Made by a program: the position numbers and the translations under genes. From NCBI RefSeq assembly GCF_001412615.1, contig NZ_CP013011.1:1920001-1952000 (forward strand): a stretch of DNA of 32,000 nt, in the 5' to 3' direction. The notes beneath the pieces were generated by a model that was given only the letters and a program-made list of their open reading frames with translations, made no database searches and was not told the DNA's origin. Shown here piece by piece: positions 2,624-30,813 of the stretch; the stretch's first letter is position 1; the number at the start of each line of letters is the position of its first letter. Source of the DNA: Pyrodictium delaneyi (GTDB taxonomy: Archaea > Thermoproteota > Thermoprotei_A > Sulfolobales > Pyrodictiaceae).

Positions 2624-2816
2624 GCCAGCACAGCTGACGAGTAGAAGCCCTGGTCTAGCTCTACTAGTCCTTTTACGGGTTCTAGGCTGAGGTGCCGGGC
2701 CTTAACTACTCGCAGTACATGATTAACTGAAGCTCCTAACCTCTCTAGGAGCTTGATCTATGCTACTAGACCATGAGCCTAGGAGCTGCTCCGCTAGGGA
2801 GCGGTGTGGGTGAGTT

Positions 2817-3827: not shown

Positions 3828-3836
3828 CCCTGGAGC

Positions 3837-15144: not shown

Positions 15145-15526
15145 GTCCGCCGCCGTAGTTAACCATGCAAATCACACGTTATAAACCAGACATAAGGTTG
15201 AGTCTTGCCTTACTATAACATACAGTTAACTGTAGCCATAATCTAAAATAACAATAATTATTTATTATTATATATTTTTAACATATACTATCTATAGTTC
15301 AGACTTAAAAACGTAACCTATAGCATTATTAACATAAACTTAATGATAAATATAACCAGAAAGATAGCCAGCTTACTCTTCACTAATAACCTGATTTATG
15401 CAATATTATAGTCCTAGTACTAGATTATTCATGTATACTTAACATTATTCATTATAAGGGTAAACAAGTTGAATCCCAACCTGGTGAACCAACAAGAATT
15501 GACAAAGACGACTCTACGGTGAAATA

Positions 15527-16378: not shown

Positions 16379-16422
16379 AGTTAACTATGACCCTATACAT
16401 ATTGCTTGGGGAACTACAACAC

Positions 16423-17400: not shown

Positions 17401-17466
17401 TTTACTTACCCCTCATTAGCATCATAGGAACTTATTCAATACTCTTGCTCTCTCATATAGGTATGT

Positions 17467-19002
17467 CTAAATCACATCTTTGATCTTACGCATAATTTTG
17501 AAACGACTACTATAATTAAATTTATCTTTAAGTATAAAATCATCTATATTAATAAGCTCAATTAGAGGTCTACCGTCACTATCGTGTGGAAGTGGCAAAC
17601 CAAGATAACTAAGCACAGTCGGGACTATATCATACATGGTAACATTTACTTCATTACCAGGCACTACATTATCCCCATAAAATGCTATCAACGCATGTGT
17701 ATCATGTTCTCCAACGAATTTACTATATACTGGTTCTGCATAGATCCTTGTATCAAATATAACGTCACTTTGAGGTATTAGTATTAGATCGGGCGCCAGA
17801 TTAGCATACCGTCCCCAGAATATGTTTCTACCATATGTTATTTTCTTAATATACTTAACATGCTTGAGTAGTGATTTAACCATAGTAATGTATTCATCCT
17901 TCACATAAACGCCCCAGTTTCCGGTCTCTAACATAAACGCAGAACTCCGAGAGTAATCTATCTCCATGGAGATAGGTATTATTGGAGCTATTTTCATCAA
18001 TATACCTGACGGTACAACTTTTTTTAACATATTTACTGTATTATTAATAGCCATATTTATAATCTTACTAAATTTATGACTAATGGTACTATTCTCATTG
18101 TCACTAGATGCTTGTGCTAGGAACGTACTTTTGTTTAATAATTTGCCAAAATTAAGCTTATATTTAAAGGCTATTAATTTATTTTCATATAGTATCCTGT
18201 TTATGCTTACAATAGTCTGTGCAGTCGTAAATCCATGGTCACTTACGAGAATAACCATATTACAAGTATTAATTGCCCTATGTATGAAAGTATCTATAAT
18301 ACTTAATATTTTGCTAACATAACTTATTTCTTTACCGTTAATAATCTCTGGTATGCGATGCATGAGCCAATCAAGTTCACTAAATACCACAATGAAGAGG
18401 TTATAGTTCTCTTGTTCGAGGAGATCATAGTACATGTTAATTCTAGTTTTAAGGAATTCCTCAACCTTATATGCATATTTCTTGTTATCAGTTGCTAGTG
18501 ACCAATTATGCGGTGGGTTTACTAAGTATTCTTTGTATTTACTATCGTAACTCTTAGGATGGATAAACTGACTTGGCGACGCCCAGTCACTTACTACAAT
18601 AACGTTTTTCAGTCCAATTAGACCGTGAACTGGATATACCAGTGGCACGTTTATAATAACACTTTTCATATTAAACATTGTAAGCATTTCAAAAATTCTA
18701 GGATACTTAATGTCGTATGAACTAGCTAATGTTACAGTAAAATTTTTGTTTTTATTTTTTATTACTTTATAAAAGCCATATATACCATGTTTGCCAGGAT
18801 TTACTCCAGTAAAGATACTCGTCCAAGCCGACGGAGTATAAGGTGGAATAGAGCTAAAAGTTGAACTAAATCCTTTATTAATTATCTTCGATATATTATT
18901 TAATGGTAGCTTATTAAGAAATAAACGTATATTATGCAGACCGACGCCATCTAACCCGATTATGCATACCTTTTTTGTTTCCACCATATTAAGTTCCACC
19001 AC
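17467..19002 (-). CDS. Alkaline-phosphatase superfamily protein, type I phosphodiesterase/nucleotide pyrophosphatase-like (paralog 2, AT-rich version)
   Basis: CIIGLDGVG, YTPSAWTSIFTGVNPGKHGIYGFY, VILVSDHGF and DIVPTVLSYLGLPLPHDSDGRPL. It is colinear with paralog 1. The start is probably the ATG at 18987 (MVETKK). Confidence 0.7.
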   Translation of the reverse strand: MVELNMVETKKVCIIGLDGVGLHNIRLFLNKLPLNNISKIINKGFSSTFSSIPPYTPSAWTSIFTGVNPGKHGIYGFYKVIKNKNKNFTVTLASSYDIKYPRIFEMLTMFNMKSVIINVPLVYPVHGLIGLKNVIVVSDWASPSQFIHPKSYDSKYKEYLVNPPHNWSLATDNKKYAYKVEEFLKTRINMYYDLLEQENYNLFIVVFSELDWLMHRIPEIINGKEISYVSKILSIIDTFIHRAINTCNMVILVSDHGFTTAQTIVSINRILYENKLIAFKYKLNFGKLLNKSTFLAQASSDNENSTISHKFSKIINMAINNTVNMLKKVVPSGILMKIAPIIPISMEIDYSRSSAFMLETGNWGVYVKDEYITMVKSLLKHVKYIKKITYGRNIFWGRYANLAPDLILIPQSDVIFDTRIYAEPVYSKFVGEHDTHALIAFYGDNVVPGNEVNVTMYDIVPTVLSYLGLPLPHDSDGRPLIELINIDDFILKDKFNYSSRFKIMRKIKDVI

Positions 19003-19071
19003 ACAATCATTATTTTTATTTTAATTATTTTAAATTATAGATTGTCTCTACTAATATTAATTATTTAATAT

Positions 19072-20097
19072 TTAACTTTCTTTCAATATTTTTTCAAATA
19101 TAGTTTTATGCATAATAGCGCTTTTTCTCCACGTAAATTTTCGTGCACGTTCCAGACCTTTACTTATGAGCATCCTACGCAAATCCTCGTTTTCAGCTAT
19201 CATTTTCATTGCAGCTGCTATTTCTTTTGTCGAATAAGGATCTACGTAAATAGCAGCATCACCGACTACTTCAGGTAAAGCTGTTACATTAGAAGCTATG
19301 ACGGGACATCCTGAGGCTATAGCTTCTAGGGCTGGCATTCCGAAGGTTTCATGAAGCGACGGAAACACAAGTGCCAACGCACCACGATAGAGTTTTGCGA
19401 GTGCTTCTTTATCTAACCGTTTACGTATTAATATAACTCCATCAATTTCAATGTTCTTTGGATATCCGGGTATTACGAGCACTAAGTATGGTTTAGGGTC
19501 AAGATCTAAACGAGTATAAGCAGCTATTATTCGCCTTAGGTTCTTCATATTATGGAATGGGTATACATACTGTGATACATGTAAGAAGTACGGTCTATTT
19601 AGTGTTACACGCTCACCCTTTGGATTAAATATATTTAAATCTACCCCATGATAAACTACAAACACTCTCTTCTCATTAAATTTTAAGTGTTTTACTAATG
19701 TATTTTTAGCATATTTCGAGACAGTTATTATTGCACTAGAACGTCTCTTAAATATACTCCATTTAATAAGGAGCCTCGTTTTTAGTACATACCTACGTAC
19801 AAGACTTTGTAAAGGTCCTGCTCCATAAAAGTCCCATGCGGGTATATCTAAACCATAATCTCCAAGCAGCGAGATTACAAGTGGTTTACGTACTTTTACC
19901 AAGGACCACGGAGGAGTTGAAAAAGGATACCAATATAAGTCTACATCAGCTTTCGTTGATATGTCATTTTTCTTGTTTATATATATGAATTCAACACCTA
20001 ATTTTTCCATCTCTCGCGTCACATTCTCAATATAGTTCTTAAAACTCAGAATTGACACCGGTTTGTTGGAGTATATTGCTACTCTCATAACTAGCAT
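19072..20097 (-). CDS. Family 4 (GT-B, GT1-type) glycosyltransferase
   Basis: C-terminal signature [42 protein letters not shown]. Confidence 0.75.
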
Positions 20098-20107
20098 AAC
20101 CCCTTAG

Positions 20108-20893
20108 TTAAGTTATCTTACCTGTTTTCTTGAAGAGCATTGCTGCAGCTACAGCTTTTTTCCTAGGCAGAATAGCCAATAAGTAGTAGTCTACATAATA
20201 ATCTATCTTTACAAGCATGTCGTTAACAGCCTTTGGGTAATTATCTATCCCAATTATCCCAAGTGTTTTCCGGAATATATCTCTTAGAATCCAGTAACGT
20301 ACATATTTGATCTTTACTAGTTTTGCACGCCCTCCTTTTTCAACTTCCGATACCCAGTCGTGAACAGGTCTAGCAAAAGTATTGAACCACGTCTTTTTGC
20401 GTCCACCATGAGCAATACCTTCAAGTAAAAAAATGTAACCATTAGGTTGCGTAACTCGTACAAGTTCATCTATTAGCTTACTTTGAGCATCATAATTATT
20501 GTGATGTATAACAGTTATAGAAAAAGAAAGATAAAAAGAATTATCTGGAAATGGTAAATCTGTTGAATCAATTTTATAGAAGCTTGCATTAGGAAACCGT
20601 TTCCTGGCAACTTCTATCATGTTTTCCGAGATATCAACACCCACATACTTTGCTCCATAACTTGTTATAAATGGCACCCAACGTCCCACACCACATCCAA
20701 GTTCAAGAACCTTCTTTCCCCTTAAGTCTACACCCTTCAGCATCGATGCAAATACTTTCTTCTGTATAATATCCATGGCCTTGTTTTCTATGTGCGAACG
20801 ACCGTAAGCACAGACAGCTTGGTAAATATCCTTTACCGCAAGCTTTGCTCTTTCCTCCCAATACTTCTTTGGAGAGTACTCGTTATGCATCAA
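20108..20893 (-). CDS. Class I SAM-dependent methyltransferase
   Basis: Motif I VLELGCGVGRW, followed by YVGVDISENMIEVARKRFPN. Confidence 0.7.
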   Translation of the reverse strand: MMHNEYSPKKYWEERAKLAVKDIYQAVCAYGRSHIENKAMDIIQKKVFASMLKGVDLRGKKVLELGCGVGRWVPFITSYGAKYVGVDISENMIEVARKRFPNASFYKIDSTDLPFPDNSFYLSFSITVIHHNNYDAQSKLIDELVRVTQPNGYIFLLEGIAHGGRKKTWFNTFARPVHDWVSEVEKGGRAKLVKIKYVRYWILRDIFRKTLGIIGIDNYPKAVNDMLVKIDYYVDYYLLAILPRKKAVAAAMLFKKTGKIT

Positions 20894-21260
20894 ATCTAGT
20901 CACCAGAATTGAAAGTTATAACCCGTATTATCTCCGATAAGATCTTAATAGTTGTACAAACGCTTTTAGTTTCTCTTGCGTTATCATTTCGATAATACTT
21001 TATAATATTACTAAGTTATTGAAGATGAGAATCCAGTTTTCCAACAGCTGGCATAATCTCGTTATTCCGGCTAAGCAAAGGATTTTGTCTCTTGACGATT
21101 CTCTACAATAGACATTCGAACTACGTCTAAAAACCTTCATTGATGTCTGCTAATTACCTTGCCAGCTGATAGTCTAGCAGGCCAACCCATCAATCCCTTC
21201 TTGAGACACTAGAGCTTACTTTTGTAGCCATCCTTAGAGGCCGTGAGTGTCTTTCAGTGG

Positions 21261-22052
21261 CTATGGTGTTAAGACCGTGGTGCATGTTCGTAGTAGTTGA
21301 GTTATCATAGAGGCTGTTAGTGTGGCTGCGAGGAGTGGGGCTAGTTTCTCGGGTTGGGCTCGGTGTAGGAGTTTGGCTGCGGTGGGTAGGGAGGCTAGTG
21401 CGCCGGCTGCTAGGGCTAGGGTGTTGGTGGGGTTCATGTATCCTGTGTGGGTGTAGGAGGCGGCTATGGCTATGAATGGTAGTAGTTTGGCTGCGGGTGT
21501 TAGTGCTATTGCGCTTCGTAGGTCTATGCCTGCTGCTAGCTGGGCTGTTACTATTAGTATGCTGTAGCCTCCTCCGAGGACTGCTTTGTCTAGGCCTGCC
21601 AGGGCGCCTAGGGCTGCGGCTGTGGCTGTTGTCTTCCGGGGTGGTGGGGGTTTGGTGTTGTCTCTGTTGTTGTGGTGGGCTAGGATGTAGAGGGGTGGGA
21701 TGAGTGTTGCTAGGGCTAGGGCGTATGCTAGGTGGGCTTGGCTGCTGGTGAGCCGAGCTGCTAGCGTGGCTGCTGTTAGGGCTGTGAGGGTGGAGGAGGC
21801 TGATAGCACGGTTACTACTTTCTTTGCGTCGTCGAGGGCTTCTGGGGCTATGTTTCCGGCTCTCCTGTGTGCCGCTATTGCGGGGAGTGTGGTTAGTAGC
21901 TGGGCTGCTGCGGCGGCTGCTGCTACGGCACGGGGGTCTTGGCCGAGGAGGACGACTAGGACTAGGCTGGCGGCTAGCCCGAAGCCGAGGCCGAGGCCGT
22001 AGTCTGCTAGGCCCGCTAGTAGGCCTGCTAGTAGCCAGGCGGCTGCCTCCAC
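21261..22052 (-). CDS. TauE/SafE (DUF81) family anion permease-like membrane protein
   Basis: 263-aa polytopic protein with two internally repeated halves. Gly-rich helices GLADYGLGLGFGLAASL and DKAVLGGGYSILIV resemble the GxGGG motifs of TauE/SafE. GTG start. Confidence 0.5.
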   Translation of the reverse strand: MEAAAWLLAGLLAGLADYGLGLGFGLAASLVLVVLLGQDPRAVAAAAAAAQLLTTLPAIAAHRRAGNIAPEALDDAKKVVTVLSASSTLTALTAATLAARLTSSQAHLAYALALATLIPPLYILAHHNNRDNTKPPPPRKTTATAAALGALAGLDKAVLGGGYSILIVTAQLAAGIDLRSAIALTPAAKLLPFIAIAASYTHTGYMNPTNTLALAAGALASLPTAAKLLHRAQPEKLAPLLAATLTASMITQLLRTCTTVLTP

Positions 22053-22103
22053 GACGCCTCAATCCCATTAATTACATCTAATTATGGCCGGACGGCTCCA
22101 CTC

Positions 22104-22126
22104 CTTAATAACATTTAATTAATGCC
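22104..22126. repeat. Left copy of an exact 23-bp direct repeat, cttaataacatttaattaatgcc
   Basis: Identical to 25704-25726, exactly 3600 bp away. AT-rich and TATA-like. It lies 52 nt upstream of the TauE-like gene start. Confidence 0.95.
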
Positions 22127-22606
22127 TGGCGTAGCTGGCTGTGCTGCCACGTTGGCGCAATTCTCTACTACACTCTACGTTGTTTGCCTAGACTCGCAGG
22201 CGTAGCAGCCTCGGAGTCCAGGTTCATGCAGCTATCATTCGTCCGGAGATGTTCTGTACTACTCCCCCGTGGTCGCCTGGCTGGGTGAAGCCCTGTGGCG
22301 GCGTCAATTACTCTTTTCGGAAAAACGGGCAAGAGCCCTCTGGGGCATCGCGTATGCCTTGAAGAGCCGGGCTAGCTGTGGATGGTATGATACGGGTTAC
22401 CGTCGAGCCCCAGTAGCGGCATTGGTCGACAGTGCTAGTGGGAATATACCCGCTCGGCTATATAATTGATAGCTAGCTGCAATTAATGGGATCGCGGCTC
22501 CGTTGAACGAGGAAATGCTGACCGTGGCTACAGAGGACGATCGGTCATGTGTGGTTGCTTATGTTTCCCGGGTAGAGTCCTTCCAAAGGGGTAAGCTGAA
22601 AAGGCC

Positions 22607-23029
22607 TTGTCCAGGTATACTGGTACACCCGGGGCGACTGGGTTGCCTCTAGTGCTGAAGAAGATATCTCCGGAGAAAGTTAGGCTTCTTAAAGCCGAGG
22701 CTGCTCGCCGGGGCCTCTCACCTTCCGAGGCCGTGGAGGAGGCCATCGAACTCTGGCTACGCCGGAGCAGCGTAGTGGAGGACTCGACCGCGGACGACGA
22801 GGCGTGGGAAAGGCTGCGGCCCCGGCTCCTCCGGGAAGCCCGCGGCATGTACGTTGTGATAGCCGAGGGCCGGCTAGTCGGCGTCTACGCTAGCCTCGAG
22901 GAAGCCGCTAGGGTGCTGCGCGAGCTACGCCACCGCGGGCTAAGGAGGGCTGTTCTGGTGCGGCCTGGTGTAGACGACGAGGCCGGGGGAGAGGGCGAGT
23001 GGCTGGGCGGGGCGCTGGAGCCGGCATAG
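22607..23029 (+). CDS. Ribbon-helix-helix (CopG/Arc-like) protein with a DUF5678-like C-terminal domain
   Basis: KKISPEKVRLLKAEAARRGLSPSEAVEEAIELWL is an RHH pattern. The C-terminal GMYVVIAEGRLVGVYASLEEAARVLREL resembles the small domain usually found next to archaeal retropepsin-like proteases. The real start is probably the in-frame GTG just before LKKISPEK. Confidence 0.55.
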   Translation: MSRYTGTPGATGLPLVLKKISPEKVRLLKAEAARRGLSPSEAVEEAIELWLRRSSVVEDSTADDEAWERLRPRLLREARGMYVVIAEGRLVGVYASLEEAARVLRELRHRGLRRAVLVRPGVDDEAGGEGEWLGGALEPA

Positions 23030-23415
23030 AGTGCTGGAGCTACGCGCCAGGGGTGAGGCTCCCATATCCTGTGGTCCGGCTCCGTCTCTACAACGCGGCC
23101 CTGGAGGAGTACGGCGAGATAGCCCTTCAAGTAGACACCGGGTACGAGGGCCCGATAATGCTTCCCCGTGGCGAGTACGAGTTCTTCATGATAGGCGAGC
23201 TGCCCCGGAGCCTCTGGAGGACCTACCGCACACTAACAGACACAGTCACGATGAGGGTGGCCCGCGCCGTCGTGGAGGTGGCTGGACAGCAGCTCGAGGT
23301 CTACGTCGAGTCGCCCCTCTACGGCGGAGGCAAGCGCCTCGTAGGGAGAGGGGTACTGAACAAGCTACGCCTACTCCTCGATGGCCCCTCCTCCAAGGCC
23401 TGCATCCTCGCCTAG
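22999..23415 (+). CDS. Retropepsin-like (clan AA) aspartyl protease, AF_0612-type
   Basis: Catalytic motif ALQVDTGYEGPIMLP. About 120-138 aa. It overlaps the upstream RHH gene by 31 nt if it starts at 22999. An alternative GTG is at 23053. Confidence 0.6.
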   Translation: MAGRGAGAGIECWSYAPGVRLPYPVVRLRLYNAALEEYGEIALQVDTGYEGPIMLPRGEYEFFMIGELPRSLWRTYRTLTDTVTMRVARAVVEVAGQQLEVYVESPLYGGGKRLVGRGVLNKLRLLLDGPSSKACILA

Positions 23416-23917
23416 CAACCTAGAGTGGCTGAGACGCCGTCAACTCTTTACCCTACTCGATGCACCGTACACTATTTCTGGTAAGCAGCGACACTGTCCT
23501 CATCGTGCCCGACAGAAGCCCGGCATAATCACATCGGCGGCTGGCTACACGTGCAGAGTCTCCTGGAGCCTAAAGCTGCTAGAAGAAAAGACAAGAATCC
23601 ACATAATCTGTACCGAAGAACATAAGCAGCGAAAGCGATTCTCAAGGAGAAAGATAATGATGCGCACACAACTCCTTAGTCAAATACTTCTGTCCTTGCC
23701 GGGCATGCCCTCTGCCATTGTTCAGAGCTTTCCGCACTCTGCTACTAGGGGCTATTAGAACTGGGCACTGATGCTTCCAAAGCATACCTTGGGGACTTGT
23801 AAGCTTCATATAGTGTGCAGCCCTGTGTCATAGTGAAGGGTTTTTCGCTCCTCTTAGCTTTGCCGAGAAGGAGAGGATCCTGCAGCGCTGGAGGAGGATC
23901 GTGGGTTCCACTACGCT

Positions 23918-24537
23918 TTGATGGAGCGCTCAGCTATCGGGGTACTAGAGCGCATCACAAGGCTAGAGGAAGGGGTCCAGAGGCAAGGAAAGGAGTTCCT
24001 AAAACTCCGAAAGACCAGCAGCAACCTAGAGGAGCGTTTCGCCCAACTAGAAGAGAAGTTTGTAAAGCTGGAGGAGAGACAACAAAAGCTAGAAGAACGA
24101 TTTGCGAGGCTAGGGGAGAGATAACATAAAAACAGACTAGGGCTTAAAAAGCCGGATAGCGTCTAGCTACTACGGCACACAAGCTCGGCGTGCTGAGTAA
24201 AGGCACGTCCCAGGAAGCGCTGGCAGGGTTGCCCCGGAGGTACTTTGGGGGCAAATGCTAAGAGGTAGAATGACAGCGAGGGCTTAATTTACAGCTACCC
24301 TCCCATAGTCGAGGTGAACGTAGTAGTAGTGAGGGATGAGTCCACATACTCGTAGAGGTGGAGAGCCGGGCCAATCCCAGCGATGTACTCGATCTTGCCA
24401 GAATAGCCCAGCTCTACGAGAAAGCGACCAGGACGAACCACCGGCTCATCATGGTGACCGGCTACATAGGGAGGAGGACTTATGAAGTCGCAGCTCGGAA
24501 TAATGTGGAGGTGTACGAGTACCTCGACGAAGAGTAG
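23918..24537 (+). pseudogene. Decayed DUF3782-like gene (heptad coiled-coil N-terminus plus PD-(D/E)XK-like C-terminal domain), broken by stops and frameshifts
   Basis: The intact 68-aa ORF 23918-24124 is four heptads: LEERFAQ/LEEKFVK/LEERQQK/LEERFAR. Out-of-frame remnants follow (..ALAGLPRRYFGGKC*EVE*). A 60-codon open frame at 24358-24537 reads VESRANPSDVLDLARIAQLYEKATRTNHRLIMVTGYIGRRTYEVAARNNVEVYEYLDEE. Confidence 0.45.
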
Positions 24538-24866
24538 CCCAAGTCTAGGAATTTTAGAGGAGCCACAGGGACATCCATCAGTAGAGTAGTGCTGGTAATT
24601 TCCGCACAGACACTCCCCGTGTATAGCCTACTCCGCCTTACTGTTCTTGCCGTTTACATGTATGGGCTAAGGTTTCCTTGCAGGATACACCCGAGCCGGG
24701 TTAGTGGCTGCCTCGCAGAGTTCCTGGATCCTTGCTCATCCAAGGGGTGGTACCCTTTGAGCTAGTGTTGCGAAACATAAGGAGCGTAGCTAGCTGCCCT
24801 TACGTCTCTAGACGCCTGGACAAGGCTTATAGGGGGTAAACAGTGTGTATACATGTTGGTGTATGT

Positions 24867-25157
24867 ATGTCGGTGAACATCACTGTTCGTATACCACGCA
24901 GGCTCGCAGAAAAGATGAAGAAGCACAGGGAGATCAATTGGAGCGAGGTCGTTAGGCGTAGCATCGAGGAGTACCTCAGACGCCTAGAGGAGGTCAAGCG
25001 TCTAGAGACGCCTGCAGAGCTTCTCGAAGAGCTACACAGTCTAGGTGTCGGCGTGGAGGATCTTGAACCACTGCCTCCTGACACGGAGGAGAAGTACTAT
25101 AGGGAGATGGTGGCCGAGGAGTGGAGGAGGGTAAGATCTACGACACAAGCGCGGTAA
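24867..25157 (+). CDS. vapB: VapB-type RHH antitoxin
   Basis: MSVNITVRIPRRLAEKMKKHREINWSEVVRRSIEEYL, the same family as 8564-8791. The ORF track starts at GTG 24843, but ATG 24867 fits the family N-terminus better. Confidence 0.65.
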   Translation: MSVNITVRIPRRLAEKMKKHREINWSEVVRRSIEEYLRRLEEVKRLETPAELLEELHSLGVGVEDLEPLPPDTEEKYYREMVAEEWRRVRSTTQAR

Positions 25158-25462
25158 TAGAGCTGGTAGCGCGGAGGGGTGCACCGCTAGTACCGGGCTA
25201 TATATCCGTGCTGACGGCGGTAGAGTACCCGCCAGCCGTGCCCCGTGTGTTAGGGATACTATACCCTACGAAGCAGGACTACCGGCTCGCTATAGCGTGG
25301 CAGGCTCGGCTCCGCAAACTCGGCACACCGATGCCAGCAGTAGACCTCGTCATAGCAGCCCAGGCCTACAACAACGGCATGGAGCTAGTAGCACTCGACA
25401 AACACTTCAAGCTACTAAAGGAGAAGATAGCACCAGACATCAAGTTGACTGATAAACTCTAA
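25121..25462 (+). CDS. vapC: PIN-domain toxin VapC
   Basis: The KIYDTSAVIEL N-terminus and the later VDLVIAAQA segment are typical of PIN/VapC. It overlaps the antitoxin gene by 37 nt. Confidence 0.65.
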   Translation: MEEGKIYDTSAVIELVARRGAPLVPGYISVLTAVEYPPAVPRVLGILYPTKQDYRLAIAWQARLRKLGTPMPAVDLVIAAQAYNNGMELVALDKHFKLLKEKIAPDIKLTDKL

Positions 25463-25703
25463 GCATCAACCCTGGCTGCCAATACTACAATCAGCCTCCC
25501 AGAGGAGGTCTACCGAAGCCAGAACACTGGCCCCCGGGATCCAGAGAGAGGGCCTGGTTATGACTACCTGTTCTAGGCCTACGTTCTCGGGCTAACTTCC
25601 TGACCCATTATCGTCAAATACAGCCATCTTGCTCAGCCAGGGCTAGGAGTAGGGCTAAGAACTTTCGAAAGAGAGCCTTGTAGGCCTTAGGCTAGCCCCG
25701 TTT

Positions 25704-25726
25704 CTTAATAACATTTAATTAATGCC
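25704..25726. repeat. Right copy of the exact 23-bp direct repeat, cttaataacatttaattaatgcc. Probable promoter/operator of the RHH-sat operon.
   Basis: Identical to 22104-22126. It ends 37 nt upstream of the GTG start at 25764. Confidence 0.95.
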
Positions 25727-25763
25727 CTGTAGGGCCTCCGCTTCTATGGGGGTTTGAGACGCT

Positions 25764-26000
25764 GTGACTGAGACGGGGAGGAGGACGCGCTACACCACTG
25801 TCTCTATACCTGTGACGCTCTACGAGAGGATAAAGAGGCTGATAGAGGGGACGGGGTTCACTAGTGTCTCCCAGTTTGTCACCTACGTGCTCCGAGAAGT
25901 GGTGGCGGAGATGGAGGAGGAGAAGCTGAGGAGTAGTGGGGTCACTGAGGAGGAGAAGCGGGAGATCATTGAGAGGCTTAAGCGCCTAGGCTACATATAG
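25764..26000 (+). CDS. CopG/RHH-family DNA-binding protein (paralog A) with a conserved C-terminal ..ERLKRLGYI tail
   Basis: TTVSIPVTLYERIKRLIEGTGFTSVSQFVTYVLREVV is an RHH beta-strand plus two helices. It is the first gene of the sat operon. Confidence 0.7.
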   Translation: MTETGRRTRYTTVSIPVTLYERIKRLIEGTGFTSVSQFVTYVLREVVAEMEEEKLRSSGVTEEEKREIIERLKRLGYI

Positions 26001-26034
26001 CAAGACGTCCCGTCCATGCCATGAAGGGTGGAGG

Positions 26035-27204
26035 GTGTCTAGAGCCGTGGTCTCTAGGCCGCATGGAGGCCGGCTTGTGGACAGGGTTGCGCGTGGCCGT
26101 AGCCGGGAGAGGCTACTGGCCGAGGCCCGGGAGATGCCCCGGCTAGAGCTCAGCGATAGCCTGGCGGCTGACGCTGCCAACATAGCTCACGGGGTCTATA
26201 GTCCTCTCGAGGGCTTCATGGTGCAGGAGGATTACCAGAGTGTGCTCCACGACATGAGGCTTAGCAGCGACCTCCCCTGGACTATCCCGATAGTCCTCGA
26301 CGCCTCTCCCGAGGAGCTGGCCGGGGTAAGGGAGGGGGATGAGATAGCCCTCTACTACCGGGGCGGGCCGCTAGCAGTGCTACGAGTCGAGGAGATATAC
26401 GGCTGGGACCGTAGGGAGTACGCTCTCAGCGTCTACAAGACGACGGACCCCGGGCACCCGGGTGTGGCCAGGCTCGCCCGGAGGAAGGAGCTGTTTGTGG
26501 GCGGCCCGATACTGCTAGTCGAGGAGCCCCCGGAGCCGTTCGAGAAGGTCCGGCTCTGGCCGAAGGAGACCAGGGTGCTGTTCGAGGCGCGGGGCTGGAG
26601 GACTATAGCAGCATTCCAGACCCGTAACGTGCCGCACCTGGGCCACGAGTACGTGCAGAAGGCTGCGCTCACCTTCACCGACGGGTTGTTCATCAACCCG
26701 CTTGTGGGCTGGAAGAAGCCCGGCGACTACCGGGACGAGGTCATAGTCGAGGCCTACCAGGCACTCATAAGACACTACTACCCCAGGGAGAGCGTGGTCT
26801 TCAGCGTCCTAAGGATGGAGATGAGGTACGCAGGGCCCCGGGAGGCGATACACCACGCCATAGTCCGGAAGAACTTCGGTGCCACCCACTTCATCGTCGG
26901 CCGGGACCACGCCGGCGTCGGCAGCTACTACGGTCCCTACGAGGCCTGGGAGCTCTTCCGAGAGTTCCCCGACCTGGGTATAACACCGCTCTTCGTAAGG
27001 GAGGCGTTCTACTGCCGGAAGTGCGGCCAGATGGTCAACGAGAAGATATGCCCACACCCAGAGGAGTACCGGGTACGCATCAGCGGCACAAAGCTACGCC
27101 GGATGATAAAGTCCGGGGAGAAGCCGCCAGAGTACATGATGCGGCCCGAGGTGGCCGAGATCATACTAAGGCACCCGAGCCCCTTCATAGAGGAGCAGCA
27201 GTAG
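26035..27204 (+). CDS. sat: Sulfate adenylyltransferase (ATP sulfurylase)
   Basis: PHGGRLVDRV N-terminus, AFQTRNVPHLGHEYV (QTRNxxHxGH), VGRDHAGVG and a Cys/His cluster CRKCGQMVNEKICPHP. Confidence 0.9.
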   Translation: MSRAVVSRPHGGRLVDRVARGRSRERLLAEAREMPRLELSDSLAADAANIAHGVYSPLEGFMVQEDYQSVLHDMRLSSDLPWTIPIVLDASPEELAGVREGDEIALYYRGGPLAVLRVEEIYGWDRREYALSVYKTTDPGHPGVARLARRKELFVGGPILLVEEPPEPFEKVRLWPKETRVLFEARGWRTIAAFQTRNVPHLGHEYVQKAALTFTDGLFINPLVGWKKPGDYRDEVIVEAYQALIRHYYPRESVVFSVLRMEMRYAGPREAIHHAIVRKNFGATHFIVGRDHAGVGSYYGPYEAWELFREFPDLGITPLFVREAFYCRKCGQMVNEKICPHPEEYRVRISGTKLRRMIKSGEKPPEYMMRPEVAEIILRHPSPFIEEQQ

Positions 27205-27212
27205 AGAGGGAG

Positions 27213-28583
27213 TTGAGCCCGGCCTTGCCGCGCCGCGTCTTCGTCCTAGGCCTCGACTCTATGCCGCCCAGCGTCCTCTACGATGACATGGATGGCGGAG
27301 GGTTCAGCTACTTACGCGGCATAGTCGAGGAGTCCAGGCGCTACCGGATGAGGACCTGCCACCCGCCGATAACCGTCCCCGCCTGGATGGTGATGTTCAC
27401 CGGCAAGACCCCTGGCGAGCTGGGGGTCTATGGGTTCCGGCACCGCCGGCCCGGCGAGTTCGGCTACTACATAGTCAATAGCAGCTATATCAAACACCCC
27501 ACGATATGGGACGACGCCGGGAGGAGGGGCCTACGGGTAGGAGTATACGGCGTGCCGCCCACCTACCCGCCCCGCCCCGTCCACGGCTTCATGGTCACAG
27601 ACTTTACCACGCCGGGGCCAGAGAAGCCCTATACTTTCCCGCCCTGGCTCCGCCGCGAGCTAGAGCAGGCCACAGGGCCCACGATATTCGACATAGTGTA
27701 CCGTAGCCACGAGAAGAGCAAGGTAGCCAGGGAGCTCTTCAGGATGCTTGAGAACCACCAGCGCCAGGTGGAGTACCTGGCCACCCAGAAGCAGTGGGAC
27801 CTCTTCGTATACGTGGAGATAGCAGTAGACCGTGCACATCACGCCTTCTGGAAGTACTTCGACCGGGCGCACCCCCGGTACGAGGAGCACCCAGAGTATA
27901 GCCGTGTCATACCAGAGATGTACAGGAGGATAGATGAATGGTTCGAAAAACTACACAGGCAGCTCCCACGAGACACGGTGATAGTGATTGCTAGCGACCA
28001 CGGCATAAAGGCGATGAAGGGTGCCTTCACCATAAACCAGTGGCTAGCCGAGCAAGGCTACCTAAAGCTAAAGGTAAACCCCAAGGAGCTCAAGCCGGGC
28101 ACTGACCTAAAGGAGGACATGATTGACTGGGAGCATACAATAGCCTGGGCTTGGGGAGGCTACTATAGCCGCGTCTTCATAAACCTCAGGGGCCGGGAGA
28201 AGCGGGGAGCAGTAGAGCCCAGATACTACGAGGAGACACTGAAGCAGCTGCGCCGCGACATAGAGCGGATAAGGGGGCCCCAGGGTGAGCAATGGAGGAA
28301 CATGGTTTTTCGGCCGGAGGAGTTGTACCCAGAAGTCAACGGTGACGCCCCTGACCTCATGGTGTACCTCGACGATCTCGGCTGGAGGCCTGCTGGGACG
28401 CTAGGCTGGCCGAGCCTCTACCTCCCGGAGAACGACCGGGGCCCTGACGACGCTGTACACGACTGGATTGGTGTATACGCCGTCTATGACCCCGAAGGCA
28501 CGGTAAGTAAGGGCGACGTGGGCACGATAGATATACACGAGGTGAGACGCAACCTGGAAGAGATAATATTCTCGAGAAGATGA
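27213..28583 (+). CDS. Alkaline-phosphatase superfamily protein, type I phosphodiesterase/nucleotide pyrophosphatase-like (divergent paralog 3), translationally packed behind sat
   Basis: VFVLGLDSMP, ITVPAWMVMFTGKTPGELGVYGF and VIVIASDHGIKA. The track ORF (27021) overlaps sat only because that frame stays open. The first plausible starts after the sat stop are TTG 27213 and TTG 27225. Confidence 0.7.
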   Translation: MSPALPRRVFVLGLDSMPPSVLYDDMDGGGFSYLRGIVEESRRYRMRTCHPPITVPAWMVMFTGKTPGELGVYGFRHRRPGEFGYYIVNSSYIKHPTIWDDAGRRGLRVGVYGVPPTYPPRPVHGFMVTDFTTPGPEKPYTFPPWLRRELEQATGPTIFDIVYRSHEKSKVARELFRMLENHQRQVEYLATQKQWDLFVYVEIAVDRAHHAFWKYFDRAHPRYEEHPEYSRVIPEMYRRIDEWFEKLHRQLPRDTVIVIASDHGIKAMKGAFTINQWLAEQGYLKLKVNPKELKPGTDLKEDMIDWEHTIAWAWGGYYSRVFINLRGREKRGAVEPRYYEETLKQLRRDIERIRGPQGEQWRNMVFRPEELYPEVNGDAPDLMVYLDDLGWRPAGTLGWPSLYLPENDRGPDDAVHDWIGVYAVYDPEGTVSKGDVGTIDIHEVRRNLEEIIFSRR

Positions 28584-28609
28584 GGTAGAGCGGAGGGCGG
28601 TGTGAGGGT

Positions 28610-28822
28610 ATGTCTGAGAAGGTGTCTATACAGATAAGTAGGGAGCTGTACGAGAAGGCTAAGAAGTTCATAGAGGAGCAGGGCGGCTTCCAGAGCGTCG
28701 AGGAGCTAGTAGAGTTCCTCCTCCAGGAGGCCCTGTTAACGGAAGAGACTGGCTCTGCAGAGATGAGCCGGGAGGACGAGGAGAAGGTCAAGGAGAGGCT
28801 ACGAGCCCTAGGCTACATATAG
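28610..28822 (+). CDS. CopG/RHH-family DNA-binding protein (paralog B) with the same ..ERLRALGYI tail
   Basis: KVSIQISRELYEKAKKFIEEQGGFQSVEELVEFLLQEAL aligns with paralog A. The C-termini EEKREIIERLKRLGYI and EEKVKERLRALGYI match. Confidence 0.7.
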   Translation: MSEKVSIQISRELYEKAKKFIEEQGGFQSVEELVEFLLQEALLTEETGSAEMSREDEEKVKERLRALGYI

Positions 28823-28857
28823 CGGTTTCACAACATCTTCTACGTCCACGCCGGGAG

Positions 28858-29418
28858 CTAGGCCAAATACTCCCTTATTTTGGCTAGGAGCTTCTCTACA
28901 TTCCTTTCCACTGTATCGTTTACCGTATCCAGCACTAGATCAGGGTTCTCAGGCGGCTCATAGGGATCCGTTATCCCGGTAAAGTGCTTAATCTCACCCC
29001 TTAGGGCCTTCTTGTAGAGCCCCTTGGGATCCCTTCTAATACACTCCTCGAGCGGAGCATTGACGTAGACTTCTATGAATGGTACCTCTTCCTCTACTAT
29101 TCTCCGTACTTCGCTACGCACCTCCCGGTACGGAGATACAAAGCTGCATAAGACTATGACCCCGTTCCGGGCTAAGAGCCGAGCTATCCAGGCTACTCGG
29201 AGGAGATGGCGGCGACGCTCCTCCCGGGTAAACCCTGCATCTGGGTTAATAGTCTTCCGAACCCAGTCTCCATCAAGTACTTCGACACGGTAGCCCATCT
29301 GACGCAGCGTCGCAGCAGCCTTGGTAGCTATTGTAGTTTTGCCGCTCCCGGGCAGCCCCGTAAGCCAGACTACTAGGCCTTTATCGAGACACGTTGGCTG
29401 CCCGCCACGTACGGCCAT
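28858..29418 (-). CDS. cysC: Adenylylsulfate (APS) kinase
   Basis: P-loop GLPGSGKTT, LDGDWVRK and SFVSPY motifs. 186 aa. Confidence 0.9.
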   Translation of the reverse strand: MAVRGGQPTCLDKGLVVWLTGLPGSGKTTIATKAAATLRQMGYRVEVLDGDWVRKTINPDAGFTREERRRHLLRVAWIARLLARNGVIVLCSFVSPYREVRSEVRRIVEEEVPFIEVYVNAPLEECIRRDPKGLYKKALRGEIKHFTGITDPYEPPENPDLVLDTVNDTVERNVEKLLAKIREYLA

Positions 29419-29619: not shown

Positions 29620-30813
29620 CTATCCCTCTACTATTTGTTTCACAGTCTCTGCTATGGTTTTTGCCTGTTCTATTGTTACTGCTGGGTGTACTGGTAGGCT
29701 GAGGACCTGCCGGGCCGCTCTCCTCGCCTCGGGGCAACCCTGGGGGCAGTCTATGCCGAGGCTCTTGTAGAGTGGCTGGTCTGGTATGGCCCTTGGGTAG
29801 TGTACTGCTGTTGCTATGCCGTGTCCGCGTAGTTTCTCTGCTAGCTGGTCTCTCGTCAGCGGGAAGGAGTCTGTGACACGGATGACATATTGGTGGTAGA
29901 CGTGACGGACCCAGGGCTTCTCGACCGGGGGCTCTATACCCTTGACCGCTTGAAGTATCTTGGTCATTGTTTCGGCGTTTTCTCTTCTCCGCTGGTTCAT
30001 CCACTCTAGTTTGCGGAGCTGTACGCGGCCTATTGCTGCTGCTATGCTTGTCATCCTTAGGTTGTAGCCTAGCTCGGTGTGGAGGTATTTCTCTGCCTGG
30101 CCGTGGTTCCGGAGGAGTCGTATCCTCTCGGCTATCTTCTTGTCGCTGGTTGTCACCATGCCTCCTTCGCCGGTGGTCATGTTCTTGGTTGGATAGAAGC
30201 TGAACGCTGCTACGTCTCCTAGTGAGCCTACCTTCTTCCCCATGTATTCTGCTCCATGGGCTTGTGCAGCGTCTTCTATGAGTATTAGGTTGTGATCCTC
30301 TGCTATCTCGCGTAGGGGCTTCATGTCGGCTGGGTGGCCGTAGAGGTGGACTGCTATTATTGCCCGGGTCCGGGGCGTTATGAGTTCCAGGACCTTGTCT
30401 GGGTCTAGGTTGTAGGTCTCTGGGTCTATGTCGGCGAAGACTGGTCGGGCTCCCTGGTAGAGTATGGCGTTAGCAGTGGCTATGAAGGTGAATGGGGTGG
30501 TTATGACCTCGTCTCCATGGCGGATACGATAGGCCTTCAGTATGAGGTCTAGCGCTGCGGTGCCACTGGAGACTGCTACTGCGTAGTCTACACCTATGTA
30601 CTCGGCGAATTCGCGCTCGAATGCCTCCACTTCGGGGCCGTGGGCTAGTATGCCGGATCGTAGAACGCGAGCTACAGCCTCTATCTCCTCGTCGTCCACT
30701 ATGGGACGGGCTATCGGGATCAAGACTGAGGCCCCGCTTGTTTCCAGTGTTTCTAAAGGAGCTTCCCTAGGGCAACTATCTAGCATCTTCCTCGTATATA
30801 CGCGTGCCTGCAT
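29620..30813 (-). CDS. DegT/DnrJ/EryC1/StrS-family PLP-dependent sugar aminotransferase (WlbC/WbpE-like)
   Basis: IPIARPIVDDEEIEAV, SSGTAALDL, DAAQAHGAEY and FSFYPTKNMTTGEGGM (PLP lysine region). The start may be the Met at 30786. Confidence 0.8.
   Translation of the reverse strand: MQARVYTRKMLDSCPREAPLETLETSGASVLIPIARPIVDDEEIEAVARVLRSGILAHGPEVEAFEREFAEYIGVDYAVAVSSGTAALDLILKAYRIRHGDEVITTPFTFIATANAILYQGARPVFADIDPETYNLDPDKVLELITPRTRAIIAVHLYGHPADMKPLREIAEDHNLILIEDAAQAHGAEYMGKKVGSLGDVAAFSFYPTKNMTTGEGGMVTTSDKKIAERIRLLRNHGQAEKYLHTELGYNLRMTSIAAAIGRVQLRKLEWMNQRRRENAETMTKILQAVKGIEPPVEKPWVRHVYHQYVIRVTDSFPLTRDQLAEKLRGHGIATAVHYPRAIPDQPLYKSLGIDCPQGCPEARRAARQVLSLPVHPAVTIEQAKTIAETVKQIVEG

What the first reader, a model, noticed from the sequence alone, without database searches (positions are those of the whole stretch)
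25704..29418. PAPS-synthesis locus containing an alkaline-phosphatase-superfamily enzyme between two paralogous RHH regulators: candidate uncharacterised sulfation or sulfonucleotide-handling system
What the sequence shows:
- The gene order is RHH-A (25764), ATP sulfurylase (26035), AP-superfamily protein (27213, starting 9-21 nt after the sat stop) and RHH-B (28610). APS kinase is convergent 35 nt away.
- No PAPS/APS reductase, sulfite reductase or canonical PAPS sulfotransferase is visible in this window.
- The locus sits inside a roughly 20-kb glycan-biosynthesis region containing glycosyltransferases, a flippase, sugar-modifying enzymes and DegT.

Established knowledge: sat plus cysC make PAPS, the universal sulfuryl donor. 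The AP superfamily does phosphoryl and sulfuryl transfer through a covalent Ser/Thr/formylglycine intermediate. It includes true transferases (EptA/MCR-1, LtaS) as well as hydrolases (sulfatases, NPPs).

Inference: the embedded enzyme could be one of three things.
- A non-canonical sulfotransferase acting on a glycan or lipid-linked intermediate.
- An APS/PAPS or PAP phosphodiesterase that edits or recycles the sulfonucleotide pool.
- A sugar-phosphate mutase.

This paralog has Leu where paralogs 1 and 2 have His in the TG.xPG.HG segment (GKTPGELG against GVNPGKHG). That hints at altered metal or substrate chemistry.
Basis: partly seen in the sequence, partly recalled or inferred. Interest (0 to 1): 0.75.

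Follow-up and report, generated by a model that had tools for sequence, protein, structure and literature searches.

The report
Known archaeal sulfate-activation cluster with pyrophosphatase
This is the Pyrodictium delaneyi copy of a published archaeal gene cluster that makes the sulfate donor PAPS; the odd alkaline-phosphatase-like enzyme inside it belongs to a family whose Thermococcus member was shown to be a pyrophosphatase, not a sulfotransferase, so the locus is largely ordinary.

Summary
The genes lie as described: RHH-A, ATP sulfurylase, a PF01663 alkaline-phosphatase-superfamily gene ("AP3", Pyrde_1958), RHH-B, and a convergent APS kinase, beside an N-glycan cluster.

Of 36 related archaeal loci with at least 3 kb on both sides, 31 carry sat and 27 carry cysC.

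The cluster is already published (Thermococcus onnurineus TON_1704-1707; Pyrococcus yayanosii PYCH_17520-17570). The T. onnurineus gene at AP3's position, TON_1705, was characterised as an inorganic pyrophosphatase. AP3 is 49% identical to PYCH_17550. It keeps the full NPP-type two-metal site and the Thr nucleophile.

Best reading: AP3 is a dedicated pyrophosphatase that pulls the unfavourable sulfurylase reaction.

The consumer of PAPS remains open. The two other PF01663 paralogs in the glycan cluster are better sulfotransferase candidates, given the Halobacterium Agl30/Agl31 precedent.

New here: a TAATTA-N4-TAATTA operator-like motif, about 100-fold enriched upstream of the cluster's genes across archaeal phyla. 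It also ties a TauE permease into the system.

The parts
25704..25726 (+). Operator-like element upstream of RHH-A. Its core is TAATAACATTTAATTA (25706-25721), a TAATTA-N4-TAATTA motif with one mismatch, centred about 50 nt before the RHH-A start.
   Evidence: An exact 23-bp copy also lies at 22104-22126; 0 matches are expected in shuffles. The motif is about 100-fold enriched upstream of RHH, cysC and TauE genes in related loci. Binding by the RHH proteins is inferred, not tested.
25764..26000 (+). RHH-A, a 78-aa CopG-like ribbon-helix-helix protein and the presumed regulator of the cluster.
   Evidence: The RHH_1 hit is weak (E=1.7e-3, below cut-off). Orthologs sit upstream of sat in most related loci. 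The P. yayanosii equivalent, PYCH_17520, is called a putative copG factor (PMC8268124).
26035..27204 (+). ATP sulfurylase (sat): sulfate + ATP gives APS + PPi.
   Evidence: PF14306 and PF01747 (E=5e-95); NF003166 at 540 bits, cut-off 387.
27213..28583 (+). AP3 (Pyrde_1958): a cytoplasmic NPP-fold, PF01663 enzyme. It is the probable cluster-dedicated inorganic pyrophosphatase, in the TON_1705/PYCH_17550 family.
   Evidence: PF01663 E=4e-48. It is 100% identical to the P. delaneyi protein and 49% identical to P. yayanosii P0169. D15, T54, D206, H210, D262, H263 and H416 are invariant. T54 aligns with the PhnA nucleophile. The AF2 model has pLDDT 90.5, and its best PDB matches are NPP1, Xac NPP and PhnA.
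28610..28822 (+). RHH-B, a 70-aa paralog of RHH-A.
   Evidence: 35% identity to RHH-A, E=1e-10. Orthologs lie next to the cluster in many loci.
28858..29418 (-). APS kinase (cysC): APS + ATP gives PAPS + ADP.
   Evidence: PF01583 E=2.5e-62; TIGR00455 at 217 bits, cut-off 138.7.
21261..22052 (-). TauE/SafE-family anion permease, a candidate sulfate or sulfite transporter of the module.
   Evidence: 40% identity to the TauE next to RHH-A in L003. PF01925 is recorded for the called gene. TauE neighbours the cluster in 14 loci and in Pyrococcus and Methanocaldococcus.
22066..22126 (.). Two operator-like motif copies upstream of tauE: 22069-22084, a perfect TAATTA-N4-TAATTA, and 22106-22121.

Best explanation
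The locus is a sulfate-activation (PAPS-synthesis) module.
- A TauE-type permease is the candidate for bringing the anion in.
- ATP sulfurylase makes APS and PPi.
- The embedded NPP-fold enzyme AP3 hydrolyses the PPi. It would use its two-metal site and Thr54, through a phospho-Thr intermediate. This pulls a reaction whose equilibrium lies far towards ATP and sulfate.
- APS kinase then makes PAPS.
- Two paralogous RHH proteins probably control the unit through TAATTA-N4-TAATTA sites at the rhhA and tauE promoters.

Shown here: gene identities, conserved synteny, an intact catalytic site, orthology to PYCH_17550, and motif enrichment.

Taken from the literature: pyrophosphatase activity of the equivalently placed T. 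onnurineus protein TON_1705.

Inferred: that AP3 has that same activity in vivo, that the RHH proteins bind the motif, and that PAPS goes to sulfation (probably of glycans) rather than to sulfide.
For: - AP3 follows sat by 8-20 nt. In many lineages sat and AP3 are directly adjacent, with gaps of 5-117 nt.
- 31 of 36 well-flanked loci carry sat and 27 carry cysC. They span Pyrodictiaceae, Acidilobaceae, Thermofilaceae, Methanomethylicia, Geothermarchaeota, Bathyarchaeia, Nitrososphaerota and Freyarchaeota.
- The same order is seen in P. yayanosii, Methanocaldococcus and Archaeoglobus.
- AP3 is 49% identical over 433 aa to the P. yayanosii protein. The gene order in L081 matches the published PYCH_17520-17570 order, which places that protein at PYCH_17550.
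- PMC8268124 labels that gene the PPi phosphatase of the pathway.
- PMC4463584 lists TON_1704 APS kinase, TON_1705 pyrophosphatase, TON_1706 PAP phosphatase and TON_1707 ATP sulfurylase.
- PMC9653972 tabulates TON_1705 with Km 18.8 uM, kcat 2.1 s-1 and kcat/Km 1.1e5.
- PMC10322725 reports that pyrophosphatase activity was rate-limiting in a sat/cysC coupled assay.
- Very high conservation (45-85% identity across phyla, 139 invariant columns) fits a universal small substrate.
- Invariant cationic residues (R76, H77, R78, K138, R164, K266, R320, R328) fit a polyanion.
Against: - I could not retrieve the TON_1705 sequence or the primary paper. Orthology to the assayed protein therefore rests on gene position and on the Pyrococcus homolog.
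- The reported kcat (2.1 s-1) is four orders of magnitude below that of the same organism's family I pyrophosphatase Ton1914 (PMC9653972). AP-superfamily enzymes are promiscuous, so PPi may not be the only or the native substrate.
- No PAPS consumer is identified in the cluster, which leaves AP3 as the only enzyme without an obligatory role.
- In Caldisphaera and Acidilobus the AP3 ortholog sits directly upstream of AglH with no sat in view.
Confidence: 0.6

Rival explanations
1. AP3 is the missing PAPS-consuming enzyme. It would be a non-canonical sulfotransferase that takes the sulfuryl group from PAPS onto Thr54 and passes it to a conserved acceptor, for example a dolichol-linked first sugar. 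The pyrophosphatase activity would be an in-vitro side reaction.
For: - With sat, cysC, a DHH PAP phosphatase, TauE and regulators present, the conserved cluster lacks only a consumer.
- No Sulfotransfer or PAPS_reduct family recurs among 146 flanking ORFs.
- AP-superfamily proteins are genetically proven N-glycan sulfotransferases in Halobacterium; one of them is cytosolic (PMC11980604).
- AP3 lies directly upstream of AglH in Caldisphaera and Acidilobus.
- The reported kcat for PPi is low (PMC9653972).
Against: - The equivalently placed protein was assayed as a pyrophosphatase with a micromolar Km and kcat/Km near 1e5, which is high for a promiscuous activity (PMC9653972).
- Cross-phylum conservation is extreme, unlike acceptor-specific glycan-modifying enzymes.
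- AP3 has no membrane-association segment, unlike paralogs AP1 and AP2.
- PMC8268124 reports a sulfotransferase gene adjacent to the cluster in other archaea.
Confidence: 0.13
2. AP3 is a sulfonucleotide or nucleotide pyrophosphatase/phosphodiesterase. It would cleave APS, PAPS or another nucleotide anhydride to edit or limit the pool.
For: - NPP fold with the full catalytic set; the best structural matches are NPP1, NPP3 and Xac NPP.
- From general knowledge, NPPs cleave nucleotide anhydrides, and the phosphosulfate bond resembles pyrophosphate.
Against: - Co-transcription with sat would create a futile cycle.
- The DHH enzyme of the cluster is already reported to hydrolyse PAP and PAPS (PMC8268124).
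- The loop that carries the NPP Asn is replaced by an invariant YGFRHRxPG.
- The published activity is on PPi.
Confidence: 0.1
3. AP3 is a general pyrophosphatase, or another phosphoryl-transfer enzyme, that serves glycan-precursor synthesis as a whole (NDP-sugar formation as well as APS formation) rather than sat specifically.
For: - The module often neighbours NDP-sugar and glycan genes: NTP_transferase, epimerase, GT4/GT1 and flippase.
- AP3 is adjacent to AglH in Acidilobales.
- Five of 36 well-flanked loci lack sat and cysC nearby.
Against: The dominant and tightest partner by far is sat (31 of 36 loci, often within 5-20 nt), not NTP-transferases.
Confidence: 0.12
4. AP3 is a sugar-phosphate mutase of the phosphopentomutase or iPGM type.
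For: It is an AP-superfamily member with a Thr nucleophile.
Against: There is no NCBIfam or Pfam match to mutase families. Structural neighbours are NPP and PhnA, not mutases. The synteny is with sulfate activation.
Confidence: 0.02

Closest known systems
[quoted passage not shown] 2009, cited in PMC4463584 and PMC9653972)
   Same: It has the same enzyme set around a non-canonical pyrophosphatase placed between sat and cysC. The logic is the same: PPi removal coupled to sulfate activation.
   Different: P. delaneyi has no DHH PAP-phosphatase gene in the cluster or the window. Its cysC is convergent, and it carries two RHH genes. I did not compare the TON_1705 sequence directly.
Pyrococcus yayanosii PYCH_17520-17570 (copG, sat, DHH pApase, type I phosphodiesterase, APS kinase, TauE; PMC8268124)
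   Same: AP3 is 49% identical to the PF01663 member. The copG-like gene, sat, cysC and TauE are all present. Both loci abut a flippase, GT2, DegT and a second AP-superfamily protein.
   Different: The order is compact sat-AP3 without DHH. TauE is separated from rhhA by a 3.6-kb insert. The PF01663 protein was not assayed in P. yayanosii; its function there is described as speculated.
NPP family (Xanthomonas NPP, ENPP1-7) and phosphonoacetate hydrolase PhnA
   Same: The fold matches (TM 0.55-0.66, E about 1e-15). The Thr nucleophile and the positions I read as the six metal ligands are conserved.
   Different: Only 11-15% identity. AP3 is cytoplasmic, with no signal peptide. An invariant YGFRHRxPG loop and about 70 extra residues are present. 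The substrate is reported to be inorganic PPi rather than a nucleotide or phosphonate.
Halobacterium salinarum Agl30/Agl31 (VNG1056C/VNG1057C), AP-superfamily N-glycan sulfotransferases (PMC11980604)
   Same: They are alkaline-phosphatase-like core-domain proteins encoded in an N-glycosylation cluster. They show that this fold can serve glycan sulfation in Archaea.
   Different: They are sulfatase-like (closest PDB matches are sulfatases), not NPP-like. Sequence relationship to AP3, AP1 or AP2 was not tested. They are the relevant analogue for AP1 and AP2 rather than for AP3.
Eukaryotic fusions of pyrophosphatase with APS kinase or ATP sulfurylase (mentioned in PMC11210485, citing Bradley et al. 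2009)
   Same: A pyrophosphatase is genetically coupled to sulfate activation.
   Different: The coupling is by fusion rather than by operon. The enzyme is a family I pyrophosphatase rather than an NPP fold.

Membership tests
Archaeal PAPS-cluster NPP-type pyrophosphatase (TON_1705 / PYCH_17550 family) | PF01663 domain with an NPP-like fold | tested here: met
   PF01663 E=4e-48, full length. AF2 pLDDT 90.5; top PDB matches are NPP and PhnA.
Archaeal PAPS-cluster NPP-type pyrophosphatase (TON_1705 / PYCH_17550 family) | Full-length sequence orthology to PYCH_17550 | tested here: met
   49% identity over 433 aa, E=8e-145, against only 19-23% to the in-window paralogs.
Archaeal PAPS-cluster NPP-type pyrophosphatase (TON_1705 / PYCH_17550 family) | Position inside a copG-sat-(DHH)-X-cysC cluster | tested here: met
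   Window gene order. 31 of 36 loci have sat and 27 of 36 have cysC. P. yayanosii context.
Archaeal PAPS-cluster NPP-type pyrophosphatase (TON_1705 / PYCH_17550 family) | Sequence homology to the assayed protein TON_1705 itself | not tested
   The sequence and the primary paper were unavailable. Equivalence is inferred from the published gene order.
Archaeal PAPS-cluster NPP-type pyrophosphatase (TON_1705 / PYCH_17550 family) | Hydrolysis of inorganic pyrophosphate | not testable with these tools
   Needs an enzyme assay.
NPP / AP-superfamily two-metal phosphoryl-transfer enzymes | Thr (or Ser) nucleophile plus the Asp/His metal-ligand set | tested here: met
   D15, T54, D206, H210, D262, H263 and H416 are invariant in 13 orthologs and 5 paralogs. 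T54 aligns to the Thr that is mutated in PhnA entry 3t02. Ligand roles come from knowledge of NPP and PhnA structures.
Formylglycine sulfatases (PF00884) | C/S-x-P-x-R formylglycine motif and a Pfam match above cut-off | tested here: not met
   The sequence at that site is C49-H-P-P-I-T, with no Arg. Sulfatase scores 16.5 bits against a cut-off of 25.
Canonical PAPS-dependent sulfotransferases (Sulfotransfer_1/2/3) | Sulfotransferase domain with the 5'-PSB and 3'-PB PAPS-binding motifs | tested here: not met
   AP3 has no such Pfam or NCBIfam hit. No ORF in 82 loci fits a crude PSB/PB motif screen. The family is not among the recurrent flank families.
AP-superfamily N-glycan sulfotransferases (Agl30/Agl31 type) | AP-like core domain protein encoded within an N-glycosylation cluster | tested here: inconclusive
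   AP3 has the fold, but it belongs to the PAPS module that abuts the glycan cluster. AP1 and AP2 meet this feature.
AP-superfamily N-glycan sulfotransferases (Agl30/Agl31 type) | Sequence homology to VNG1056C/VNG1057C, and loss of glycan sulfation on deletion | not tested
The genetics cannot be done here.
Phosphopentomutase / iPGM mutases | Match to mutase family models | tested here: not met
   AP3 has no NCBIfam hit. Structural neighbours are NPP and PhnA.
CopG/RHH transcription factors (RHH-A, RHH-B) | Ribbon-helix-helix domain | tested here: inconclusive
   RHH_1 scores 18.7 bits against a cut-off of 20.5 for RHH-A. RHH-B has only a weak DUF6364 hit. The P. yayanosii counterpart is annotated copG (PMC8268124).

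The most novel reading that the evidence does not exclude
The AP3 family is not merely a pyrophosphatase. It would be the long-missing PAPS-consuming enzyme of this pan-archaeal cluster: an NPP-fold sulfotransferase with a Thr nucleophile acting on a conserved acceptor such as the dolichol-linked first sugar. The reported PPi hydrolysis would be a side activity. A milder version is that the neighbouring paralogs AP1 and AP2 are the sulfotransferases, and that Pyrodictium makes sulfated N-glycans from this module.
Probability: 0.13. Interest if true: 0.75.

Novelty: already known. Interest (0 to 1): 0.25.

Why it matters
**For annotation.** Pyrde_1958 and its thousands of homologs are labelled only "alkaline phosphatase family protein" or "nucleotide pyrophosphatase". 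They can be named as the pyrophosphatase of the archaeal sulfate-activation cluster.

**For biology.** The open question is not this enzyme. It is what anaerobic, sulfide-rich hyperthermophiles do with PAPS when no reductive pathway is linked to it. The module repeatedly neighbours N-glycan genes and extra AP-superfamily proteins, in Pyrodictium, Pyrococcus, Methanocaldococcus and many metagenome-assembled genomes. Together with the Halobacterium Agl30/Agl31 precedent, this makes sulfated glycans a directly testable answer.

**For regulation.** The conserved TAATTA-N4-TAATTA element gives a handle on how the module is controlled.

Tried and rejected
- Sequence search of AP3 against PDB found nothing. 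NCBIfam found nothing.
- I tried three identifiers for the primary TON_1705 paper; none is held.
- I spent two homolog searches trying to reach the T. onnurineus protein. They reached P. yayanosii, Pyrococcus sp. and Thermococcus sp. MV11, but not T. onnurineus.
- I suspected that Hfx. volcanii Agl7 (required for DolP-hexose sulfation, PMC3892788) might be a PF01663 protein. Its family could not be established from the held papers or supplements, so it remains an unverified lead.
- I suspected that the conserved 328-aa neighbour with no Pfam hit (12658-13644) was a hidden sulfotransferase. It is an Alg13/14-like (PssD/PssE) glycosyltransferase.
- A crude PSB/PB motif screen for canonical sulfotransferases in all flank ORFs gave zero candidates. 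That is weak negative evidence only.
- No DHH homolog exists in the window.
- The 6.5 kb to the right of the window holds TmcA, a Usp protein, archaemetzincin and an amidase. It has no PAPS consumer.

Full report
**1. Observation**

The window comes from Pyrodictium delaneyi. The central protein is 100% identical to Pyrde_1958.

- RHH-A lies at 25764-26000(+).
- ATP sulfurylase lies at 26035-27204(+), with PUA_2 and ATP-sulfurylase domains and NF003166 at 540 bits.
- A PF01663 protein, here called AP3, lies at 27213-28583(+), E=4e-48. It starts at TTG 27213, or at TTG 27225 in the NCBI call, which is 8-20 nt after the sat stop.
- RHH-B lies at 28610-28822(+).
- APS kinase lies at 28858-29418(-) and converges on RHH-B.
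- A DegT aminotransferase lies at 29620-30813(-).

RHH-A and RHH-B are paralogs (35% identity, E=1e-10).

The region to the left is a glycan-biosynthesis region. It holds:
- an AglH-type GT4 and an Alg13/14-like GT;
- a flippase-like protein;
- GT2 and GT1 glycosyltransferases;
- an epimerase, a methyltransferase, an acetyltransferase and an oxidoreductase;
- two more PF01663 paralogs: AP1 at 13651-15144(-) and AP2 at 17467-19002(-).

No reductive sulfate-assimilation gene and no canonical sulfotransferase domain was detected. This covers the window and the 6.5 kb beyond its right end.

**2. Is the linkage real?**

A scan of species-representative genomes returned 80 loci that encode AP3 orthologs at 45-86% identity.

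I mapped the window's proteins onto these loci. Of 36 loci with at least 3 kb on each side, 31 carry sat, 27 carry cysC and 17 carry a DHH protein. RHH-A and RHH-B homologs are also common.

The lineages include:
- Pyrodictiaceae, Acidilobaceae, other Desulfurococcales and Thermofilaceae;
- Methanomethylicia, Culexmicrobium and Geothermarchaeota;
- Bathyarchaeia, Nitrososphaerota and Freyarchaeota.

The same order is seen in Pyrococcus yayanosii, Methanocaldococcus sp. 28A and Archaeoglobus sulfaticallidus.

In many relatives a roughly 1-kb gene lies between sat and AP3. It encodes a DHH/DHHA1 protein, the family of the archaeal PAP phosphatases. P. delaneyi lacks this gene in the cluster and in the window.

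A TauE permease is a frequent neighbour, in 14 loci. The window has one at 21261-22052(-).

**3. What AP3 is**

The family is very strongly conserved:
- the best 120 hits are 57-94% identical;
- 139 columns are invariant among 13 diverse orthologs.

Its invariant residues include the NPP-type set D15, T54 (in PPITxPAW), D206, H210 (DRxHH), D262, H263 (SDHG) and H416. The same positions are conserved in AP1 and AP2.

A family profile aligns T54 with the Thr that is mutated in phosphonoacetate hydrolase entry 3t02.

The AlphaFold model is confident (pLDDT 90.5, pTM 0.90). Its best solved-structure matches are ENPP1, Xanthomonas NPP, ENPP6 and PhnA, with E about 1e-15 and TM 0.55-0.66.

The protein has no signal peptide. 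The metal-binding GLD motif begins at residue 13, within the first predicted strand.

The position is not one of the seven conserved positions I read as nucleophile or metal ligands. A Pyrococcus glycan-cluster paralog also has Leu there.

**4. What is already known**

The literature describes this very cluster.

In T. onnurineus NA1 the genes are TON_1704 APS kinase, TON_1705 pyrophosphatase, TON_1706 PAP phosphatase and TON_1707 ATP sulfurylase (PMC4463584, citing Lee et al. 2009, J Bacteriol 191:3415). PMC9653972 tabulates TON_1705 with pH optimum 9.5, kcat 2.1 s-1, Km 18.8 uM and kcat/Km 1.1e5.

In P. yayanosii the genes are PYCH_17520 copG, 17530 sat, 17540 DHH pApase, 17550 "type I phosphodiesterase/nucleotide pyrophosphatase" and 17560 APS kinase, with a TauE next to them. 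Equivalent clusters are reported in Ferroglobus, Aciduliprofundum, Aeropyrum and Ignicoccus. The pathway figure labels the PF01663 gene as the PPi phosphatase (PMC8268124).

I recovered the P. yayanosii protein (P0169) with exactly that context. It is 49% identical to AP3 over 433 residues.

I could not obtain the TON_1705 sequence or the primary paper. The link to the assayed enzyme therefore rests on position and homology.

**5. Mechanism**

The ATP sulfurylase equilibrium lies far towards ATP and sulfate (established biochemistry). In a reconstituted archaeal sat/cysC assay, pyrophosphatase activity was rate-limiting (PMC10322725).

A pyrophosphatase co-transcribed directly after sat therefore makes sense. 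Fusions of pyrophosphatase with sulfate-activating enzymes in eukaryotes give a precedent (PMC11210485).

I put 0.6 on this reading. The reservations are:
- the reported kcat is low compared with the same organism's family I pyrophosphatase (PMC9653972);
- the superfamily is known to be promiscuous;
- the conserved cluster contains no PAPS consumer;
- Caldisphaera and Acidilobus loci have AP3 directly upstream of AglH with no sat in view.

In those Caldisphaera and Acidilobus loci the contigs always break just upstream of AP3, so the absence of sat is not established.

**6. Where PAPS goes**

I ran Pfam on 146 ORFs that flank the core genes. No Sulfotransfer or PAPS_reduct family is recurrent among them.

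The recurrent flank families are instead:
- NTP_transferase;
- GT4 and GT1;
- MatE and Polysacc_synt flippases;
- UDP-glucose dehydrogenase;
- methyltransferases;
- further Phosphodiest (4) and Sulfatase (2) proteins.

In P. yayanosii and Methanocaldococcus the module abuts a flippase, a GT2 and an AP-superfamily protein, just as in P. delaneyi.

AP1, AP2 and their relatives keep the Thr and metal set. They also carry an extra hydrophobic or amphipathic insert and a sulfatase-like C-terminal DIVPTVL..LGLPLP.D.DG motif.

A 2025 study showed genetically, and by heterologous expression, that two AP-superfamily sulfatase-like proteins are the N-glycan sulfotransferases of Halobacterium salinarum. 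They are Agl30, which is membrane-associated, and Agl31, which is cytosolic (PMC11980604).

In this window it fits AP1 and AP2 better than AP3. This part is inference only.

**7. A regulatory element found on the way**

An exact 23-bp sequence, CTTAATAACATTTAATTAATGCC, occurs at 25704-25726 upstream of rhhA and at 22104-22126 upstream of tauE. None is expected by chance. A related copy lies at 22066-22084.

The core is TAATTA-N4-TAATTA. I searched 85 loci for it, allowing at most one mismatch:

| Region searched | Hits | Sequence searched | Density |
|---|---|---|---|
| 170-nt windows around RHH, sat, cysC and TauE starts (160 nt upstream to 10 nt inside) | 48 | 48 kb | 1.0 per kb |
| Elsewhere in the loci | 9 | 905 kb | 0.01 per kb |
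| Upstream of other ORFs | 2 | 87 kb | 0.023 per kb |

The motif is present in 36 of 56 loci that carry sat or cysC. It precedes 30 of 50 RHH-A-type genes, mostly within about 60 nt of the start.

It occurs as a perfect or one-mismatch copy in Archaeoglobus, Methanocaldococcus, Culexmicrobium, Freyarchaeota, Geothermarchaeota and Methanomethylicia.

The likely reading is an operator for the cluster's RHH proteins that overlaps the promoters. This is untested. I found no mention of it in the papers I read.

**8. Verdict**

The module is a known one, and its embedded enzyme has a published, mundane role.

The residual interest lies in three things: the unknown sink for PAPS, the candidate AP-type sulfotransferases next door, and the conserved operator.

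Noticed in passing
window 22066-22126 and 25704-25726; related loci L003, L007, L062, L064, L074, L075, L083, L084 and others: A conserved TAATTA-N4-TAATTA element lies upstream of the RHH, tauE and cysC genes of the PAPS cluster across archaeal phyla. It is about 100-fold enriched over the rest of the loci. It is probably the operator of the cluster's RHH regulators.
   Followed up: yes
window 22104-25726: Exact 23-bp direct repeats (22104-22126 and 25704-25726) bracket a 3.6-kb stretch of small ORFs. These include a PDDEXK_10 protein and an RHH_12/VapB-like plus PIN pair at 24843-25462. In relatives such as L003 and L007, tauE and rhhA are divergent neighbours about 60-150 nt apart. The stretch therefore looks like an insertion into the shared promoter/operator region. 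No integrase was seen.
   Followed up: partly
window 13651-15144(-) and 17467-19002(-); L081:10386-12023, L083:639-1976, L035:9340-13422: Two further PF01663 paralogs (AP1, AP2) lie inside the N-glycan cluster. They keep the Thr nucleophile and metal set, carry an extra hydrophobic insert and have a sulfatase-like C-terminal motif. Similar AP-superfamily proteins sit beside the PAPS module in Pyrococcus, Methanocaldococcus and several metagenome-assembled genomes. They are candidate glycan sulfo- or phospho-transferases, by analogy with Agl30/Agl31.
   Followed up: partly
window about 15000-21000: A low-GC island (31-43% GC against 55-64% around it) carries GT2, an epimerase, AP2, GT1 and a methyltransferase. 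It looks like a horizontally acquired, variable part of the glycan cluster.
   Followed up: no
window 27204-27213, compared with L001, L003, L004, L005, L007, L008: The closest relatives have a DHH/DHHA1 (PAP phosphatase-type) gene between sat and AP3. P. delaneyi has none there or anywhere in the window. The gene has been lost or moved.
   Followed up: partly
L029, L030, L051, L085, L023 (Caldisphaera, Acidilobus): The AP3 ortholog lies directly upstream of the AglH-type GT4 (gaps of 0-85 nt in four of the five loci), followed by a GNAT and an epimerase, with no sat in view. In all five assemblies the contig ends 40-730 nt upstream of AP3, which suggests a repeat there.
   Followed up: partly
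window 12658-13644(-): A 328-aa protein has no Pfam hit at the default threshold but is conserved next to the module in 9 loci. It has a GGGHxG motif and matches PssD/PssE (Alg14/Alg13-like) models. It is probably the glycosyltransferase for the second GlcNAc of the N-glycan core.
   Followed up: yes
P0169 against P0222, P0246 and others: The P. yayanosii AP3 ortholog is 82-83% identical to those of Methanocaldococcus, and the cluster order is the same. This suggests recent transfer of the whole module between Thermococcales and Methanococcales.
   Followed up: no
L084:3656-5062: In Archaeoglobus sulfaticallidus an IS605 OrfB (TnpB-type) gene occupies the place where sat normally sits, between the RHH gene and DHH-AP3-cysC.
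   Followed up: no
window 1523-5114: The left end encodes a homocitrate/isopropylmalate synthase-like protein, an isocitrate/isopropylmalate dehydrogenase and an aconitase-family large subunit. A GPN-loop GTPase follows at 5107-5868(-). These are unrelated to the finding.
   Followed up: no
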